In this document: in pieces, positions 18,186 through 40,777 of the stretch
Layout of the letters: every line of letters begins with the position of its first letter
Position numbering within the stretch: position 1 is the first letter of the stretch
Source: Escherichia coli
GTDB taxonomy: Bacteria > Pseudomonadota > Gammaproteobacteria > Enterobacterales > Enterobacteriaceae
Direction: 5' to 3' (one strand)
Length of the DNA: 64,000 bases
Assembly (NCBI RefSeq): GCF_050920415.1
Contig: NZ_CP169309.1
The notes under the pieces: model-generated
Database searches by the model: none
Seen by the model: only the letters and a program-made list of their open reading frames with translations
What the model was told of the DNA's origin: nothing
Position numbers and translations under genes: made by a program

Positions 18186-18365
18186 TGATGCGACGCTGGC
18201 CTGATAAGACGCGGGCAGCGTCGCATCAGGCATCGTGTGCAAATGTCGGATGCGGCGGGAACGCCTTATCCGACCTGCAAGATCTTTTATATCAACGTGT
18301 TAAAAAATTGTAGGCCTGATAAGACGCGCCAGCGTCGCATCGGGCATCCAGTGTAAATGTTGGAT
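18186..18365. repeat. REP/BIME palindromic repeat cluster (yacG-mutT intergenic)
   Basis: Several copies of GCCTGATAAGACGCG..CGTCGCATCAGGC and GCCGGATGCGGCG-type palindromes. Confidence 0.85.
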
Positions 18366-18781: not shown

Positions 18782-18809
18782 AAAAAAGGCGCAGAATCCT
18801 GCGCCTTTT
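18782..18809 (-). terminator. Intrinsic terminator after secA (bidirectional-looking)
   Basis: aaaaaa-GGCGCAG-aatcc-TGCGCC-tttt; 18 bp downstream of the secA stop and about 15 bp upstream of the mutT start. Confidence 0.6.
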
Positions 18810-18826
18810 ACTTCAACTGTTAGCTT

Positions 18827-21532
18827 TTATTGCAGGCGACCGTGGCACTGCTTGTATTTTTTACCAGAACCGCACGGGCAAGGATCATTACGTCCAACTT
18901 TGCGTTCACCAGTTTGTGCCGCCAGTGCAGCTGCGGCTGCAGAGTCGTCATCCTGATGGCTAAGCTGCTGCATTTGCGCTAAACGCTCGGCTTCCATACG
19001 ACGCTGTTGTTCCAGCTCCTCAACCTCTTCAGGCATACGTACCTGAACTTTGCTCAGCGTGCTGATAACTTCATATTTCAACGACTCCAGCATCGCTGCA
19101 AACATGGAGAACGATTCACGTTTGTATTCCTGCTTCGGATCTTTCTGTGCATAGCCACGCAGGTGGATACCTTGACGCAGATAATCCATCGCCGCCAGGT
19201 GCTCTTTCCACAGGGAGTCAAGCGTTTGCAGCATGACGCCTTTCTCGAAGTGACGCATCATCTCAGCGCCAACCACTTCTTCTTTACGCTGATACACTTC
19301 GATGGACTGCGCCAGAATACGCTCACGCAGCGTCTCTTCATGCAGTTCTGGCTCTTTGTCCAGCCACTCGGCAATCGGCAAATCGAGGTCGAAATCGTTC
19401 TTCAGACGTTCCTGCAGCCCCGGAATATCCCACATTTCTTCCAGCGACTGCGGCGGAATGTAGGCATCGATGGTCGCTTTGAACACATCTTCACGAATGC
19501 TGTTGATGGTATCGCTCACATCGCTGACATCCAGCAGTTCATTACGCTGGGAGTAAATGGCGCGACGCTGATCGTTAGCCACGTCATCATATTCCAGCAG
19601 TTGCTTACGAATATCGAAGTTACGGCTTTCAACTTTACGCTGAGCGTTGGCAATCGCTTTGGTCACCCACGGGTGCTCGATGGCTTCGCCTGGTTTCATA
19701 CCCAGTTTACGCATCATGCCGGAAACACGGTCAGAAGCAAAAATACGCATCAGCGCATCTTCCATCGACAGGTAGAAACGGGAAGAACCGGCATCCCCCT
19801 GGCGCCCAGAACGACCGCGTAGCTGGTTATCGATACGACGAGATTCGTGACGTTCTGTACCGATGATATGCAGACCACCTGCAGCCAGTACCGCATCGTG
19901 ACGCACCTGCCAGTCGGCTTTGATTTTTTCAATTTGCTCTGCGGTCGGATTTTCCAGCGCGGCAACTTCTGCCTGCCAGCTACCACCGAGCACAATATCT
20001 GTACCACGACCCGCCATGTTAGTCGCGATAGTCACCGCCGCGGGATAACCCGCTTGTGCAACAATCGCTGCTTCGTTAGCGTGGAATTTGGCGTTCAGAA
20101 CGTTGTGTTTGATACCGGCTTTGGTCAGCTCGTTTGACACCAATTCCGATTTTTCGATGGAGATAGTACCCACCAGCACCGGCTGGCCTTTCGCAGTACG
20201 TTCTTTGATATCTTCAATGATCGCCTGAATTTTTTCCGCTTCAGTCATGTAGACCAGGTCCGGCAGATCTTTACGAATCATTGGACGGTTGGTCGGAACA
20301 ACGACGGTATCCAGCTTATAGATGGAGCTGAATTCGAAAGCTTCGGTATCAGCAGTACCGGTCATCCCCGCCAGTTTTTCATACAGACGGAAGTAGTTCT
20401 GGAAGGTGATCGACGCCAGCGTCTGGTTTTCGTTCTGGATCTGTACACCTTCTTTCGCTTCCACTGCCTGATGCAGGCCATCGGACCAACGACGTCCCTG
20501 CATGGTACGACCGGTGTGTTCGTCAACGATGATAACTTCACCATCTTTAACGATGTAGTCGACGTCTCGGGTAAACAGCGCATGAGCGCGCAGCGCCGCC
20601 GTTACGTGGTGCATCAGCATGATGTTGGCCGGAGAGTACAGAGACTCCCCTTCATCCATGATGCCTTCTTTCACCAGCAGTTCTTCAATCAGCACCAGAC
20701 CACGTTCGGTCAGGTTCACCTGGCGAGATTTTTCGTCCACCGAGAAGTGGCCTTCGCCCTGGAAGGTTTCGGAGTCTTCTTTTTCCTGACGGATCAGGTG
20801 CGGAATAATTTTATTCACGCGTTTATACATTTCCGAGCTGTCTTCTGCCGGGCCGGAAATGATCAGCGGTGTACGCGCTTCATCGATCAGGATGGAGTCC
20901 ACTTCGTCCACCAGCGCATAGTGCAGTTTACGCTGTACACGTTCTTCAGGGCTGAACGCCATGTTATCGCGCAGGTAGTCAAAGCCGTATTCGTTGTTCG
21001 TACCGTAAGTGATGTCAGCTGCGTAAGCTTCACGCTTCGCCGGTGCTGGCATGCCCGGCAGGTTGATACCGACAGTCAGGCCAAGGAATTCAAACAGCGG
21101 ACGGTTGTTTTCGGCGTCACGTTGCGCCAGGTAGTCGTTGACGGTAACAACGTGTACGCCCTTACCGGTTAATGCGTTCAGGTAAGCAGGCAGCGTTGCG
21201 GTCAGGGTTTTACCTTCACCGGTACGCATTTCCGCGATGCAGCGTTCGTTAAGAACCATACCGCCGAGTAACTGAACGTCGAAGTGACGCATACCAAAGA
21301 CGCGCTTACTTGCCTCACGCACCACAGCGAAAGCTTCTGGGATCAGATTTTCCAGCACTTCGCCTTTTTCCAGACGTGCACGAAACTCTGCGGTTTTCCC
21401 TTTCAGTTCTTCGTCGGAGAGTTTTTCCATCTCCGGTTCCATGGCATTGATGATGTTGACGACTTTGCGCATCCGGCGCAGGGTGCGATCGTTACGACTA
21501 CCGAAAACTTTAGTTAATAATTTGATTAGCAT
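18827..21532 (-). CDS. secA: Preprotein translocase ATPase SecA
   Basis: 901 aa ORF ([23 protein letters not shown]..), C-terminal zinc motif [14 protein letters not shown]. Confidence 0.98.
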
Positions 21533-23354: not shown

Positions 23355-24506
23355 TTAATCAGCTTGCTTACGCAGGAATGCTGGGATATCCAGATAATCC
23401 GGCTCTTTCGCAGTTTGCGGTGCGTTGTCATTCACGACTTTAGCAACCGGTTTCTGCTCCTGAGTCAGCGGTGCCATCCCGTGCTGCTGGTAGCGATCCA
23501 TCACTGGCTGCTGAACCTGCTTATTGGTCACCAGGGTGATTTCAGGACGTTTGTCCATACCGATACCTGTCGCAACAACGGTTACGCGCAGCTCGTCATT
23601 CATATCCGGGTCAAGAGAAGTACCGATAACCACAGTTGCGTTGTCGGATGCAAATGCACGGATGGTGTTACCTACCGTTTCGAACTCATCCAGACGCAGG
23701 TCGAAGCCCGCCGTGATGTTAACCAGCACGCCGCGCGCGCCAGACAGATCGATATCTTCCAGCAGCGGAGAGGAGATAGCCATTTCAGCAGCTTCTTCCG
23801 CACGGTCTTCGCCGCTCGCCACACCAGAACCCATCATTGCGTAGCCCATTTCAGACATTACGGTACGTACGTCTGCAAAGTCCACGTTCATCAGGCCTGG
23901 ACGAGTAATCAGTTCAGCGATACCTTGCACAGCACCTTTCAGTACATCGTTCGCTGCGCCAAATGCATCCAGCAGGGAGATACCGCGGCCCAAGACTTTC
24001 AGCAGTTTGTCGTTAGGGATAGTGATCAGAGAGTCCACATGCTTGGACAGTTCAGTGATCCCCTGCTCAGCGAATGCCATACGCTTCTTGCCTTCAAAGT
24101 TGAAAGGCTTAGTCACGACAGCAACGGTCAGGATCCCCAAATCTTTTGCCACTTCAGCGACAACTGGTGCTGCACCTGTACCGGTACCACCACCCATACC
24201 CGCAGCAATAAAGACCATGTCTGCACCTTCCAGCGCCGCACGCAGTGCATCGCGATCCTCATCAGCCGCATTACGGCCAACTTCTGGATTTGCGCCAGCT
24301 CCCAGTCCTTTGGTGATACCGCTACCGATTTGAATCGTCTGTCCAACCGCTGTTTTACGCAGCGCTTGTGCATCGGTATTTACCGCGAAGAATTCAACAC
24401 CTTCAATGCGCTCGCGCACCATGTGTTCAACAGCATTACCGCCGCCGCCGCCGACGCCGATGACTTTAATCACCGCGTCATTGGTAAGTTCCATTGGTTC
24501 AAACAT
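23355..24506 (-). CDS. ftsZ: Tubulin-like cell division GTPase FtsZ
   Basis: 383 aa ORF with tubulin signature GGGTGTG. Confidence 0.98.
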
Positions 24507-24566
24507 AGTTTCTCTCCGATTTGTGCCTGTCGCCTGAGGCCGTAATCATCGTCGGCCTCATAAAAA

Positions 24567-25829
24567 TTAAAACTCTTTTCGCAGCCAACTATTGAGTCGC
24601 TTGATCCACGAGCCAACTGATGCTGTAACACGTTTTTCTACTTCAGCTTCACCGTTAAGATGTGACTCTTTCCCATAGTGAAGCAATCCCACCGCCGTCG
24701 AATAATACGGCTCCTGAGCATAATCCGTTAAACCGGTAATGTTCAGCGGCGCGCCGATACGCACTTGCGTATGAAACACGCGCTGAGCACAGGCTGCAAG
24801 ACCTTCGATCTGCGCTGCGCCACCAGTTAAAACAATGCCTGCCGCCAGGTGATGTTTAACCCCTTGTTGGCGAAGCTTTTCCTGCAACTGCAATATCTCT
24901 TCGTTGACCAGGTTGAGCAGCTCGGTATAGCGCGGCTCGATCACCTCTGCCAGGGTCTGACGTTGCAGACTCCGCGGTGGACGACCGCCTACGCTCGGCA
25001 CTTCCACGCTCTCATCTTTTCCAACGATGGAACCCAGCGCACAACCGTGGCGAACTTTAATCGCTTCGGCGTCGCTTGGCGGCGTGCCAAAGGCGTAAGC
25101 GATATCACTGGTCACGACATTGCCAGCATAAGGAATTACCTTAGTGTGGCGCAATGCCCCACCGGTATAAACGGCGATATCCATTGTACCACCACCGATA
25201 TCGACGACGCAGACACCCAGTTCACGTTCATCTTCCGTCAATACCGAATAACTTGATGCCAGTCCGGCAAATATCAGTTGGTCAACTTTCAGCCCACAAC
25301 GTTCAACCGCTTTGACGATGTTTTTCGCCATATCGTTGTGACATGTGATCAGATGCACTTTTGCCTGCATCCGCACGCCCGAAAGTCCTACCGGATTCTT
25401 GATCCCTTCCTGATAGTCAATCGCATACTCTTGCGGGATCACATGCAGCACACGATGCTCATCGCGCACACGCACTGATTTCGCGGTATGGACGACGTTT
25501 TCCACATCTTCTTGCGTCACTTCTTCTTCAGAAATAGGCACCATACCAATTTCATTCTGGCAGCTGATGTGCTTACCAGAAAGCGCCAGATATACCGAAG
25601 AGATCTGACAATCTGCCATCAATTCTGCCTGGTCAATGGCGCGTTGTACGCACTTGACCACGGATTCGAGGTCGTTTACCCCGCCTTTATCCATACCACG
25701 CGACGGGCAGCTGCCCACGCCAATGATATTGACCATACCGTCGGGCAGAACTTCCCCTACTAAAGCGGCAACCTTCGCGGTACCAATCTCCAGTCCTACT
25801 ACCAGTTTTCTGTCCGTCGCCTTGATCAT
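24567..25829 (-). CDS. ftsA: Actin-like cell division protein FtsA
   Basis: 420 aa ORF ([27 protein letters not shown]..). Confidence 0.97.
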
Positions 25830-38779: not shown

Positions 38780-39717
38780 GCGTTCGTCCTCTCTGCAATA
38801 CGCAGAACTGAACTACGGGCACGAGGGTTCTCAGCCACCTCTTCTTCGCCCGGCATTAACTTGCCTAGTGCTCGCAGCTGACGGCCACCCAGTTTTTTGA
38901 GTTGCTCTTCAGTCATCGGTAACCCTGCCGGAACTTGCGGACCACGGCTGTTTTCACGCATAAAGCGTTTCACAATGCGGTCTTCCAGCGAGTGGAAGCT
39001 GATGATCGAGAGCCGCCCCCCCGGGGCCAGCACGTTGAGCGAGCTTTTTAGCGCCTGCTCTATCTCCTCCAGTTCACTGTTTACCCAAATGCGCACCGCC
39101 TGGAAGGTACGGGTCGCGGGATGTTTAAACTTATCTTTCACCGGCGTTGCGGCAGCCACGACTTCCGCCAGTTCTTTGGTGCGGGTCATCGGCTGTTCGC
39201 GGTTTCGCTCGACAATGGCGCGGGCAATGCGTTTGGCAAAACGCTCTTCACCATAGGTTTTCAATACCCAGGCGATATCGGCTTCTTCTGCGGTTTGTAG
39301 CCATTCAGCGGCTGACTGCCCACGGGTTGGGTCCATACGCATGTCCAGCGGACCATCGCGCATAAAGGAAAAGCCGCGTTCAGCATCATCAAGTTGCGGT
39401 GAAGAGACGCCAAGATCGAGGAGAATGCCGTCGATCTTGCCGATAAGATCGCGCTCGGCAACGTATTCGCCCAGCGCGGAGAAAGGTCCGTGGATGATGG
39501 AGAAGCGCGGATCATCAATAGTCTTCGCAACGGCGATAGCCTGCGGGTCGCGATCGATCGCCAGCAAACGCCCCTCTTCGCCAAGCTGCGAGAGGATCAG
39601 ACGTGAGTGACCACCGCGACCAAAAGTCCCATCAATGTAGATGCCATCAGGACGGATATTGAGGCCATTAACGGCTTCATCCAGCAGCACCGTAGTATGT
39701 TTATAGTTTTCCATCAT
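38776..39717 (-). CDS. rsmH: 16S rRNA m4C1402 methyltransferase
   Basis: ORF 38776..39846; start taken at internal ATG 39717 ([16 protein letters not shown].., 313 aa). Confidence 0.94.
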
Positions 39718-39718
39718 T

Positions 39719-40177
39719 TTATAGAGACAAGTCCTGCAGTCGCTCCGATAAGTCTCCAGTAGCCAACTGCTCTGCGTCGATATCTTCCTTGACCTGTTGA
39801 TGCCAGGTTGTTTCATCCCACAGCTCAAACTTGTTGAACTGTCCAACCAGCATCACTTCTTTTGTCAGACCGGCATGTTGCCGCAGTACTGGCGCGATTA
39901 ACAATCGACCGGCGCCATCCATCTGACATTCGCTGGCATGACCTAACAGAAGGCGCTGCACACGGCGCTCAACCGGGTTCATGCTCGACAGACGCGATAA
40001 TTTTTGCTCGATAATTTCCCATTCAGGCAGGGGGTAAAGCAGCAGGCACGGGTGATGAATGTCAATGGTGCAAACCATTTGACCGGCAGCGTTCTCAAGC
40101 AGCTGTTCCCGATAACGGGTAGGCACTGATAAGCGCCCTTTGCTGTCGAGATTGACTAACGTTGCTCCCCGGAACAT
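39719..40177 (-). CDS. mraZ: Transcriptional regulator MraZ
   Basis: ORF 39719..40213; start taken at ATG 40177 ([19 protein letters not shown].., 152 aa) with AAGGGGTGAGG ribosome-binding site upstream. Confidence 0.93.
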
Positions 40178-40196
40178 GCCAGCCTCACCCCTTATT

Positions 40197-40221
40197 CCCA
40201 CTTTGCCCCACAATTTCCCAC
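40197..40221 (-). promoter_or_regulatory. MraZ operator / Pmra region: three GTGGG direct repeats at 10-bp spacing
   Basis: Minus strand reads GTGGGaaattGTGGGgcaaaGTGGG directly upstream of the mraZ ribosome-binding site. Confidence 0.7.
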
Positions 40222-40734
40222 TGAAAGGAGTTTACGGAGCGGAGGAAAAGCTTGTCAAGCCAGTCACAAGGCATACCGAGGTAAAAAACCCGATGTTTAC
40301 GGCTAATATCAGCGTTGTTTATTTTACGTCCAACGTGCGAAGCAAATTAACGTTATGAATAGCTGTAAGAAAAAATCCCTCATGGTCATCACCGTTTTAA
40401 AATGACTAACTATTTTCCACAGCAAATATAAAGTGTCAGTTTGCGACGCGAGCGGCATTTTAGGACATATCTTCCCCGGTTAACAGTCCCTGTTGCGTCT
40501 GTGTGGCGCTTGATGCCAGCAGGTTTGCGCAAAAGCAAAGAAAAGTGTTTGTTAAATCGGCAATTCATCTCTGCATGTAACAAAATAATGCAAAAACGCT
40601 CTGTCAATATTGCTTAATTATTGTGAATTTCAGCAGGTGAGTTAATTAATGGGCGGGTTTAAAAGCATTTATCAATAATAGCCAGGAATAGTCTTATTTA
40701 CTTTAAGGATATTGATGTCCATTCCCGTACTCGA

Positions 40735-40771
40735 CGCGCCAATGAGAAATTCACTGGCGCGTATTTTTGTT
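40735..40771 (+). terminator. Terminator-like hairpin plus U-run oriented on the + strand, abutting the cra stop
   Basis: CGCGCCAaTGA-gaaat-TCACTGGCGCG followed by TATTTTTGTT on the + strand; in the cra (minus) direction the hairpin is followed by GTCGAG, not U. Confidence 0.45.
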
Positions 40772-40777
40772 CGCGGC

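What the first reader, a model, noticed from the sequence alone, without database searches (positions are those of the whole stretch)
40178..40260. MraZ operator repeats sit directly against the mraZ ribosome-binding site
Three GTGGG direct repeats with exact 10-bp periodicity (40197-40221, minus strand) lie about 20 bp upstream of the mraZ ATG. This is the signature of MraZ autoregulation of the dcw cluster promoter and places the operator over the likely transcription start rather than far upstream.
Basis: partly seen in the sequence, partly recalled or inferred. Interest (0 to 1): 0.2.

Follow-up and report, generated by a model that had tools for sequence, protein, structure and literature searches.

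The report
Known MraZ operator at E. coli Pmra
This is the already characterised DNA site where the E. coli MraZ repressor binds over the start of its own cell-division operon; it is base-for-base the same as in the K-12 strain used for the experiments, so it is real but ordinary.

Summary
Three GTGGG repeats lie on the minus strand at 40221-17, 40211-07 and 40201-197 with an exact 10-nt period. The pattern occurs once in the window (0.01 expected by chance) and ends 19 nt before the mraZ ATG (40177). The window is an E. coli chromosome. From the Pmra -35 through the ATG it is identical to K-12 MG1655 except for one spacer base (40241). It is therefore the published MraZ operator (Eraso 2014), not a new feature. 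Published start-site data put +1 at 40221 (Cappable-seq, first G of box 1) or 40215 (older mapping, 38-nt UTR). I sampled 117 mraZ loci from other species without reference to the operator. Of these, 86 carry a perfect (GTG[G/T]N6)x3 on the mraZ strand, always at period 10, with none on the reverse strand and 0.1 expected. A -10-like hexamer ends 6-9 nt before box 1 in 39 of the 86, but the distance to the ATG ranges from 10 to 186 nt. So closeness to the ribosome-binding site is a side effect of E. coli's short 5' UTR, not a conserved design. A G-quadruplex reading is possible for E. coli but is not conserved (6 of 117). Verdict: already known, low interest.

The parts
40253..40258 (-). Pmra -35 hexamer TTGACA
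   Evidence: Consensus scan, 10 of 12 matches with an 18-nt spacer. Identical in K-12. Conserved as cTTGACA across Enterobacterales and Alteromonadales. The published PdhR gel-shift probe (window 40233-40276) covers this hexamer, not the repeats.
40241..40241 (-). Single-base difference from K-12 (C here, A in K-12) in the Pmra spacer
   Evidence: It is the only substitution in the proximal 200 bp of the intergenic region.
40229..40234 (-). Pmra -10 hexamer TAAACT
   Evidence: It ends 7 nt before box 1. A TANNNT hexamer ends 6-9 nt before box 1 in 39 of 86 operator-bearing loci from other species.
40221..40221 (-). Transcription start by Cappable-seq (K-12 89,590; gives a 44-nt 5' UTR)
   Evidence: Supplementary GTF of PMC4782308, mapped to the window by alignment.
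40215..40215 (-). Transcription start by the classical mapping (38-nt 5' UTR; K-12 89,596)
   Evidence: Cited in PMC7761207 and PMC5089854, mapped. It lies 13 nt after TAAACT, which is unusually far, so 40221 is the better fit to the promoter geometry.
40217..40221 (-). MraZ box 1 (GTGGG)
40207..40211 (-). MraZ box 2 (GTGGG)
40197..40201 (-). MraZ box 3 (GTGGG; GTGGT in E. albertii and Citrobacter)
40188..40191 (-). GGGG exactly in phase with the boxes: a possible degenerate fourth box, part of AAGGGG next to the Shine-Dalgarno sequence (speculative)
   Evidence: An in-phase match of at least 3 of 4 bases after the last perfect box occurs in 18 of 86 loci, against 1-10 at other offsets. 16 of 86 loci have four perfect boxes.
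40183..40186 (-). Shine-Dalgarno core GAGG, 5 nt before the ATG
39719..40177 (-). mraZ coding sequence (152 aa plus stop), with two DXXXR motifs (D11-R15, D87-R91) and K13
   Evidence: Residues read from the translation.

Best explanation
The three phased GTGGG boxes are the operator of the MraZ repressor at Pmra, the first promoter of the E. coli dcw (division and cell wall) cluster. MraZ is encoded by the gene immediately downstream. It binds as an oligomer with one subunit per box. The 10-bp spacing puts successive boxes on the same face of the helix. The boxes span +1 to +25 relative to the Cappable-seq start (or -6 to +19 by the older mapping), so bound MraZ occupies DNA that RNA polymerase must cover at Pmra. 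It thereby represses mraZ and the downstream dcw genes in a negative autoregulatory loop. Shown here: the sequence, its statistical uniqueness in the window, its identity to K-12, its position relative to the promoter and published start sites, and its deep conservation. Taken from the literature: MraZ binding and repression in K-12, and the one-subunit-per-box major-groove contacts seen in M. genitalium. Inferred: steric occlusion of RNA polymerase as the mechanism of repression.
For: The exact triplet occurs once in the window against 0.01 expected. The window is an E. coli chromosome, and the promoter-operator-RBS segment is identical to K-12 except at 40241. The 101-bp segment is at least 99% identical in 5395 of 5423 E. 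coli genomes. The surrounding intergenic region is 3.5% diverged from K-12, with 20 of 21 substitutions lying distal to the promoter. The gene downstream is MraZ (PF02381, E=4e-47), with K13/R15 and a second DXXXR motif matching the residues shown to contact the boxes. In 117 mraZ loci chosen by coding sequence only, all true homologues at 24-96% identity, 86 have a perfect (GTG[GT]N6)x3 on the sense strand. The reverse strand has none, 0.1 is expected from shuffles, and every case has period 10 although periods 9-12 were tested. Most of the other 31 have two perfect boxes plus one degenerate in-phase box. Start sites: K-12 89,590 maps to 40221 and the 38-nt UTR maps to 40215. Literature: MraZ binds the repeats and represses Pmra in E. 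coli, and the repeats lie downstream of the -10 box. Cryo-EM shows one MraZ subunit per GTG(G/T) box, and the start site of M. genitalium lies inside box 1.
Against: No binding or expression experiment could be run here, and the primary papers (Eraso 2014, Hara 1997, Mengin-Lecreulx 1998) are not in the held library, so their content is taken from citing papers. The two published start sites differ by 6 nt. The occlusion mechanism, as opposed to blocking promoter escape or acting as a roadblock, is inferred and not demonstrated.
Confidence: 0.94

Rival explanations
1. The G-runs of the three boxes plus the adjacent AAGGGG form a G-quadruplex on the sense DNA strand or in the 5' UTR RNA. On this view the quadruplex, rather than or in addition to MraZ binding, controls mraZ expression, as proposed for S. 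aureus PmraZ.
For: The E. coli sequence fits the canonical motif GGG-N7-GGGG-N6-GGG-N5-GGGG (40219-40188), with a G4Hunter-like score of 1.46-1.59. With the start at 40221 all four runs are transcribed. PMC11796246 reports a G4 downstream of PmraZ in S. aureus and claims conservation in Gram-negative bacteria.
Against: Only 6 of 117 mraZ loci have a canonical G3 motif upstream, against 86 with phased boxes. The closest relatives (E. albertii, Citrobacter) lack it because box 3 is GTGGT. In 28 of 86 loci none of the three boxes contains GGG. An invariant T in GTGG and a strict 10-nt period are expected for a protein site, not for a quadruplex. With the older start at 40215 the first G-run is not in the RNA.
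Confidence: 0.04
2. Because the boxes are transcribed and lie next to the Shine-Dalgarno sequence, they act at the RNA level, through UTR structure or protein binding to the mRNA, to control mraZ translation.
For: The boxes lie at +1 to +25 of a 44-nt UTR. Box 3 is 3-10 nt from the SD-like sequences.
Against: The UTR plus early coding RNA folds no better than shuffles (MFE -11.6 kcal/mol, z=0.49). The predicted helix does not involve the boxes. The box-to-ATG distance varies from 10 to 186 nt and the intervening sequence is not conserved, even within Enterobacterales (20 nt versus about 30 nt). The conserved neighbour of the boxes is the -10 hexamer. MraZ is a SpoVT/AbrB-type double-stranded-DNA binder.
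Confidence: 0.02
3. The repeats are a chance product of the G-rich oligomer skew of this strand, or the binding site of another regulator such as PdhR.
For: GTGGG is 2.6-fold more frequent on the minus strand of the window (67 against 26). PdhR was reported to bind the mraZ promoter region weakly.
Against: Dinucleotide-preserving shuffles give 0.01 expected matches. The triplet is conserved across phyla only on the mraZ strand. The PdhR probe corresponds to window 40233-40276, covering the -35 and spacer, and does not include the boxes. Its binding was very weak in vitro, with 1.7-fold ChIP enrichment.
Confidence: 0.005

Closest known systems
E. coli K-12 MraZ operator at Pmra (mraZ1p): three direct repeats between the -10 box and mraZ (Eraso et al. 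2014, J Bacteriol 196:2053)
   Same: It is the same locus and the same sequence. The -35, -10, all three boxes, RBS and start codon are identical, and the flanking genes are the same: cra upstream, then rsmH-ftsL-ftsI downstream.
   Different: One base in the promoter spacer (C at 40241, A in K-12). Most sampled E. coli genomes share the window's version of this segment: 13 of 20 evenly spaced rows were 100% identical.
MraZ binding repeats of B. subtilis (three GTGG[A/T]G with 4-nt spacers) and Mollicutes ((AAAGTGKN3)x3; four boxes in M. genitalium, cryo-EM PDB 9qlr/9qlg/9sx6)
   Same: GTG(G/T) core, 10-nt period, location at the mraZ promoter, and autorepression. The consensus unit derived here, (A/T)3-GTGG-(G/T)-(A/G)-A, matches it.
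   Different: E. coli has three perfect boxes of the GTGGG type plus at most one degenerate in-phase GGGG. M. genitalium has four boxes and an octameric MraZ, whereas a dodecamer has been suggested for E. coli MraZ.
Burkholderia cenocepacia PmraBc operator (four 7-nt repeats with 3-nt spacers)
   Same: It lies downstream of the -10 box and overlaps the transcription start.
   Different: The start is 100 nt upstream of mraZ there, so the operator is far from the RBS. This shows that closeness to the RBS is not part of the design.
S. aureus PmraZ G-quadruplex (PMC11796246)
   Same: A G-rich stretch downstream of the mraZ promoter. The E. coli sequence also fits a canonical G4 pattern.
   Different: G4 potential is not conserved in my sample (6 of 117). 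No structural evidence exists here for the E. coli sequence.

Membership tests
MraZ operator (MraZ boxes / MBRs) at the dcw promoter | At least three direct repeats with a GTG(G/T) core | tested here: met
   GTGGG three times at 40221, 40211 and 40201 on the minus strand.
MraZ operator (MraZ boxes / MBRs) at the dcw promoter | 10-nt centre-to-centre period | tested here: met
   The period is exactly 10. All 86 perfect triplets in other species also have period 10, although periods 9-12 were tested.
MraZ operator (MraZ boxes / MBRs) at the dcw promoter | [quoted passage not shown] | tested here: met
   mraZ (PF02381) starts at 40177 and is followed by rsmH, ftsL, ftsI and murE. No triplet was found on the reverse strand in any species.
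MraZ operator (MraZ boxes / MBRs) at the dcw promoter | Located downstream of the -10 box and overlapping the transcription start | tested here: met
   The -10 hexamer ends 7 nt before box 1. Published starts map to 40221 and 40215.
MraZ operator (MraZ boxes / MBRs) at the dcw promoter | Cognate MraZ carrying the DNA-contacting residues (K13, R15 and the second DXXXR arginine) | tested here: met
   The translation reads ...LDSKGR... (D11, K13, R15) and ...MDGAGR... (D87-R91). These residues are described as essential.
MraZ operator (MraZ boxes / MBRs) at the dcw promoter | Direct MraZ binding and MraZ-dependent repression | not testable with these tools
   Published for the identical K-12 sequence (Eraso 2014, as cited). 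The primary paper is not held.
Canonical G-quadruplex motif | Four runs of at least 3 G separated by loops of 1-7 nt | tested here: met
   GGG-N7-GGGG-N6-GGG-N5-GGGG at 40219-40188.
Canonical G-quadruplex motif | Conservation of G4 potential at mraZ promoters, as claimed in PMC11796246 | tested here: not met
   Present in 6 of 117 loci and absent from E. albertii and Citrobacter.
PdhR box at mraZ | Reported PdhR site coincides with the repeats | tested here: not met
   The published probe TCGGTATGCC...CCTCAGCTCC corresponds to window 40276-40233, upstream of the boxes.

The most novel reading that the evidence does not exclude
In E. coli and its nearest relatives the operator may extend to a fourth, degenerate in-phase box (GGGG, 40191-40188) that abuts the Shine-Dalgarno sequence. 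Alternatively, the transcribed boxes (+1 to +34) may form an E. coli-specific RNA or DNA G-quadruplex. In either case the short 5' UTR would couple transcriptional autorepression to control of translation initiation, which would give the RBS adjacency a function after all.
Probability: 0.05. Interest if true: 0.4.

Novelty: already known. Interest (0 to 1): 0.08.

Why it matters
As found, it matters little. It re-identifies from raw sequence the textbook autoregulatory site of the dcw cluster in a strain whose operator is identical to K-12. The modest added value is the comparative result. In a sample of 117 species chosen without reference to the operator, the phased GTGG boxes are close to universal. 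They lie near the -10 hexamer and the transcription start, and their distance to the start codon is free to vary. That argues the operator works at the promoter and not at the RBS. It also argues that the recently proposed G-quadruplex is not the conserved feature.

Tried and rejected
I tried to read the primary papers (Eraso 2014 PMC4010979, Mengin-Lecreulx 1998 PMC107448, Hara 1997 PMC179470), but none is held, so their content is taken from citing papers. A text search for 'TGGGN' with MraZ found only irrelevant papers, and PMC9395523 added nothing on the operator. The terminator scan of 39700-40800 found none. RNA folding of the UTR gave no signal. Rfam found no family in the cra-mraZ intergenic region. 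The 164-aa TTG-initiated ORF (39719-40213) from the ORF listing reads through boxes 2 and 3. I rejected it as a mechanical N-terminal extension, because RefSeq annotates the 152-aa ATG start and the homologues begin at MFRG. The G-quadruplex reading was considered and rejected as the conserved function. My first impression of a rigid 7-nt gap between the -10 hexamer and box 1, taken from the close relatives, was corrected to a 6-9 nt window. A genome-wide count of triplet sites in E. coli was not possible with these tools; only the 64-kb window was checked.

Full report
OBSERVATION. On the minus strand the window reads TTGACA (40258-53), an 18-nt spacer, TAAACT (40234-29), cctttca, GTGGG (40221-17), aaatt, GTGGG (40211-07), gcaaa, GTGGG (40201-197), aat, AAGGGG (40193-88), t, GAGG (40186-83), ctggc, ATG (40177). 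The pattern GTGGGN5GTGGGN5GTGGG, allowing up to one mismatch, occurs exactly once in the 64 kb. Dinucleotide-preserving shuffles give 0.01 expected matches. No other GTGG or TGGG triplet at this phasing exists on either strand.

WHAT AND WHERE. The window is an E. coli chromosome. A 701-bp query across the region hits 5423 of 5426 complete E. coli genomes, with cra and mraZ annotated on either side. The best hit shows the order ilvI-ilvN-cra-mraZ-rsmH-ftsL-ftsI, which matches the window's ORFs. The ORF starting at 40177 is MraZ (Pfam PF02381, E=4e-47). It carries K13/R15 and a second DXXXR motif (D87-R91). Solved MraZ structures exist, including recent DNA complexes. Aligned with K-12 MG1655, the segment from upstream of the -35 through the start codon is identical except for C at 40241, where K-12 has A, in the promoter spacer. 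Everything published for the K-12 promoter and operator therefore applies to this sequence.

WHAT IS KNOWN. The primary papers are not in the held library, so I rely on how later papers describe them. Eraso et al. 2014 showed that E. coli MraZ binds a repeated sequence upstream of mraZ and represses transcription from Pmra, including its own gene. That site lies downstream of the -10 box. Pmra transcripts are described as starting 38 nt upstream of mraZ. The same GTG(G/T) boxes at 10-nt period are described for B. subtilis, Mollicutes and M. genitalium. In M. genitalium, cryo-EM shows one MraZ subunit inserted in the major groove of each box, and the start site lies inside box 1. In B. cenocepacia the repeats also overlap the start site, which there is 100 nt from mraZ.

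TRANSCRIPTION START. The Cappable-seq TSS table for K-12 lists one strong start on the mraZ strand at 89,590 (score 27.2), with weaker ones at 89,360 and 89,237. A gap-aware alignment maps 89,590 to window 40221, the first G of box 1. That is 7 nt after TAAACT and gives a 44-nt UTR. The classical 38-nt position maps to 40215. That position is 13 nt beyond the -10 hexamer, which is unusually far, so 40221 fits the promoter geometry better. Either way the start is at box 1. The boxes span +1 to +25, or -6 to +19 by the older mapping. This region is expected to be covered by RNA polymerase at the promoter (general knowledge), so occlusion of the polymerase is the most economical mechanism. That step is inferred.

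CONSERVATION. Within E. coli, the 101-bp promoter-operator segment is at least 99% identical in 5395 of 5423 genomes. The 601-bp intergenic region differs from K-12 at 21 positions, of which 20 lie distal (40384-40745) and only 40241 is proximal. For other species I scanned the species-representative genomes with a pattern built only from the MraZ N-terminal coding sequence, so the sample is blind to the operator. All 120 loci encode true MraZ homologues at 24-96% identity. Of the 117 with at least 150 nt of upstream sequence, 86 have a perfect (GTG[GT]N6)x3 on the mraZ strand. The reverse strand has none and shuffles give 0.1 expected. All 86 have period 10, although periods 9-12 were tested. 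Most of the other 31 have two perfect boxes plus one degenerate in-phase box. The consensus unit is (A/T)3-GTGG-(G/T)-(A/G)-A.

PROMOTER VERSUS RBS. Anchoring the sequences on box 1 shows cTTGACA, about 18 nt, then TAAACT just upstream of the boxes across Enterobacterales, Alteromonadales and Pasteurellales. A TANNNT hexamer ends 6-9 nt before box 1 in 39 of 86 loci, against 1-7 loci (mostly 1-4) at any other offset. The distance from the last box to the ATG, in contrast, ranges from 10 to 186 nt with a median of 37. The sequence in between is unconserved even among enterobacteria: 20 nt in Escherichia and Citrobacter, about 30 nt in several other Enterobacterales. The operator therefore sits close to the promoter and start site, not at a set distance from the RBS. 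The adjacency stressed in the finding's title is a consequence of E. coli's short UTR.

RIVALS. (a) G-quadruplex. The boxes plus AAGGGG fit a canonical G4 motif, and a 2025 paper proposes a G4 downstream of PmraZ in S. aureus with claimed conservation in Gram-negatives. In my sample only 6 of 117 loci have such a motif. E. albertii and Citrobacter lack it because box 3 is GTGGT. In 28 of 86 loci none of the three boxes contains GGG. An invariant T and strict 10-nt phasing point to a protein site. (b) RNA-level role. The UTR folds no better than shuffles (z=0.49), and the variable distance to the RBS argues against it. (c) PdhR. The published probe covers the -35 and spacer (40233-40276), not the boxes, and binding was very weak. 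(d) Chance. This is excluded.

RESIDUAL NOVELTY. E. coli has GGGG at 40191-88, exactly in phase with the boxes. An in-phase match of at least 3 of 4 bases after the last perfect box occurs in 18 of 86 loci, against 1-10 at other offsets, and 16 loci have four perfect boxes. A degenerate fourth box reaching the SD region is therefore possible but unproven. I give this, or a G4-based coupling to translation, about 5%.

VERDICT. The feature is real and correctly interpreted, but already known. Interest is low.

Noticed in passing
L123:170-180 (E. coli WS3294A, NZ_CP035819.1), corresponding to window 40218-40222: One complete E. coli genome has a 5-bp deletion (CAGTG) that removes the GTG core of MraZ box 1 and the Cappable-seq start base, leaving only two intact boxes. 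It could be a natural operator or promoter variant, or an assembly error.
   Followed up: partly
window 40215 vs 40221 (minus strand): The two published Pmra start sites disagree by 6 nt: the classical mapping gives a 38-nt UTR and Cappable-seq gives 44 nt. The classical one lies 13 nt after the TAAACT hexamer, which is unusually far.
   Followed up: partly
window 40451 and 40574 (minus strand): Cappable-seq lists two weaker upstream starts in the cra-mraZ intergenic region (K-12 89,360 and 89,237). The first has a TAAAAT hexamer 5 nt upstream and the second has a TTGACA at -35 distance. Their transcripts would have to read through the MraZ operator.
   Followed up: partly
window 40384-40745 vs 40178-40383: Substitutions against K-12 in the 601-bp intergenic region are strongly uneven. 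20 of 21 lie in the distal part and only one (40241) in the proximal 200 bp. Only 19 of 5423 E. coli genomes are at least 99% identical to the window over 40100-40800, so the distal part marks a less common lineage.
   Followed up: no
whole window: GTGGG is 2.6 times more frequent on the minus strand (67) than on the plus strand (26). This may reflect a G-rich oligomer skew of the leading strand, which was not tested. It raises the local background for G-rich repeats, but not enough to explain the triplet.
   Followed up: no
window 24498-24587 (-), 18782-18851 (-), 18198-18275 (-), 6811-6924 (+): Rfam gathering-score hits to the small-RNA families PssrA, STnc40, naRNA4 (CssrE) and tp2, in and beyond the dcw cluster. 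None was examined.
   Followed up: no
window 50992-51218 (-), 46084-46233 (+), 52975-53074 (+): Expected landmarks of this E. coli region: SgrS sRNA, the leucine operon leader and a TPP riboswitch.
   Followed up: no
window 39719-40213 (-): The mechanical ORF list gives a 164-aa TTG-initiated version of mraZ that reads through boxes 2 and 3. This is an artefact of the longest-ORF rule. The annotated and conserved start is the ATG at 40177.
   Followed up: yes
L001:1851-1937: RefSeq annotates a 28-aa hypothetical protein between ilvN (the small subunit gene of the ilvI operon) and cra in the genome identical to the window. It was not examined.
   Followed up: no
L047, L112 (Rhodobacteraceae); L064, L091, L108, L115 (Legionella): These mraZ loci lack a perfect box triplet within 250 nt. 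Legionella keeps two in-phase boxes in three of its four loci, and one Rhodobacteraceae locus (L047) has a triplet 405 nt upstream. This fits the long UpsM-containing 5' leader described for Rhodobacter (PMC5089854).
   Followed up: partly
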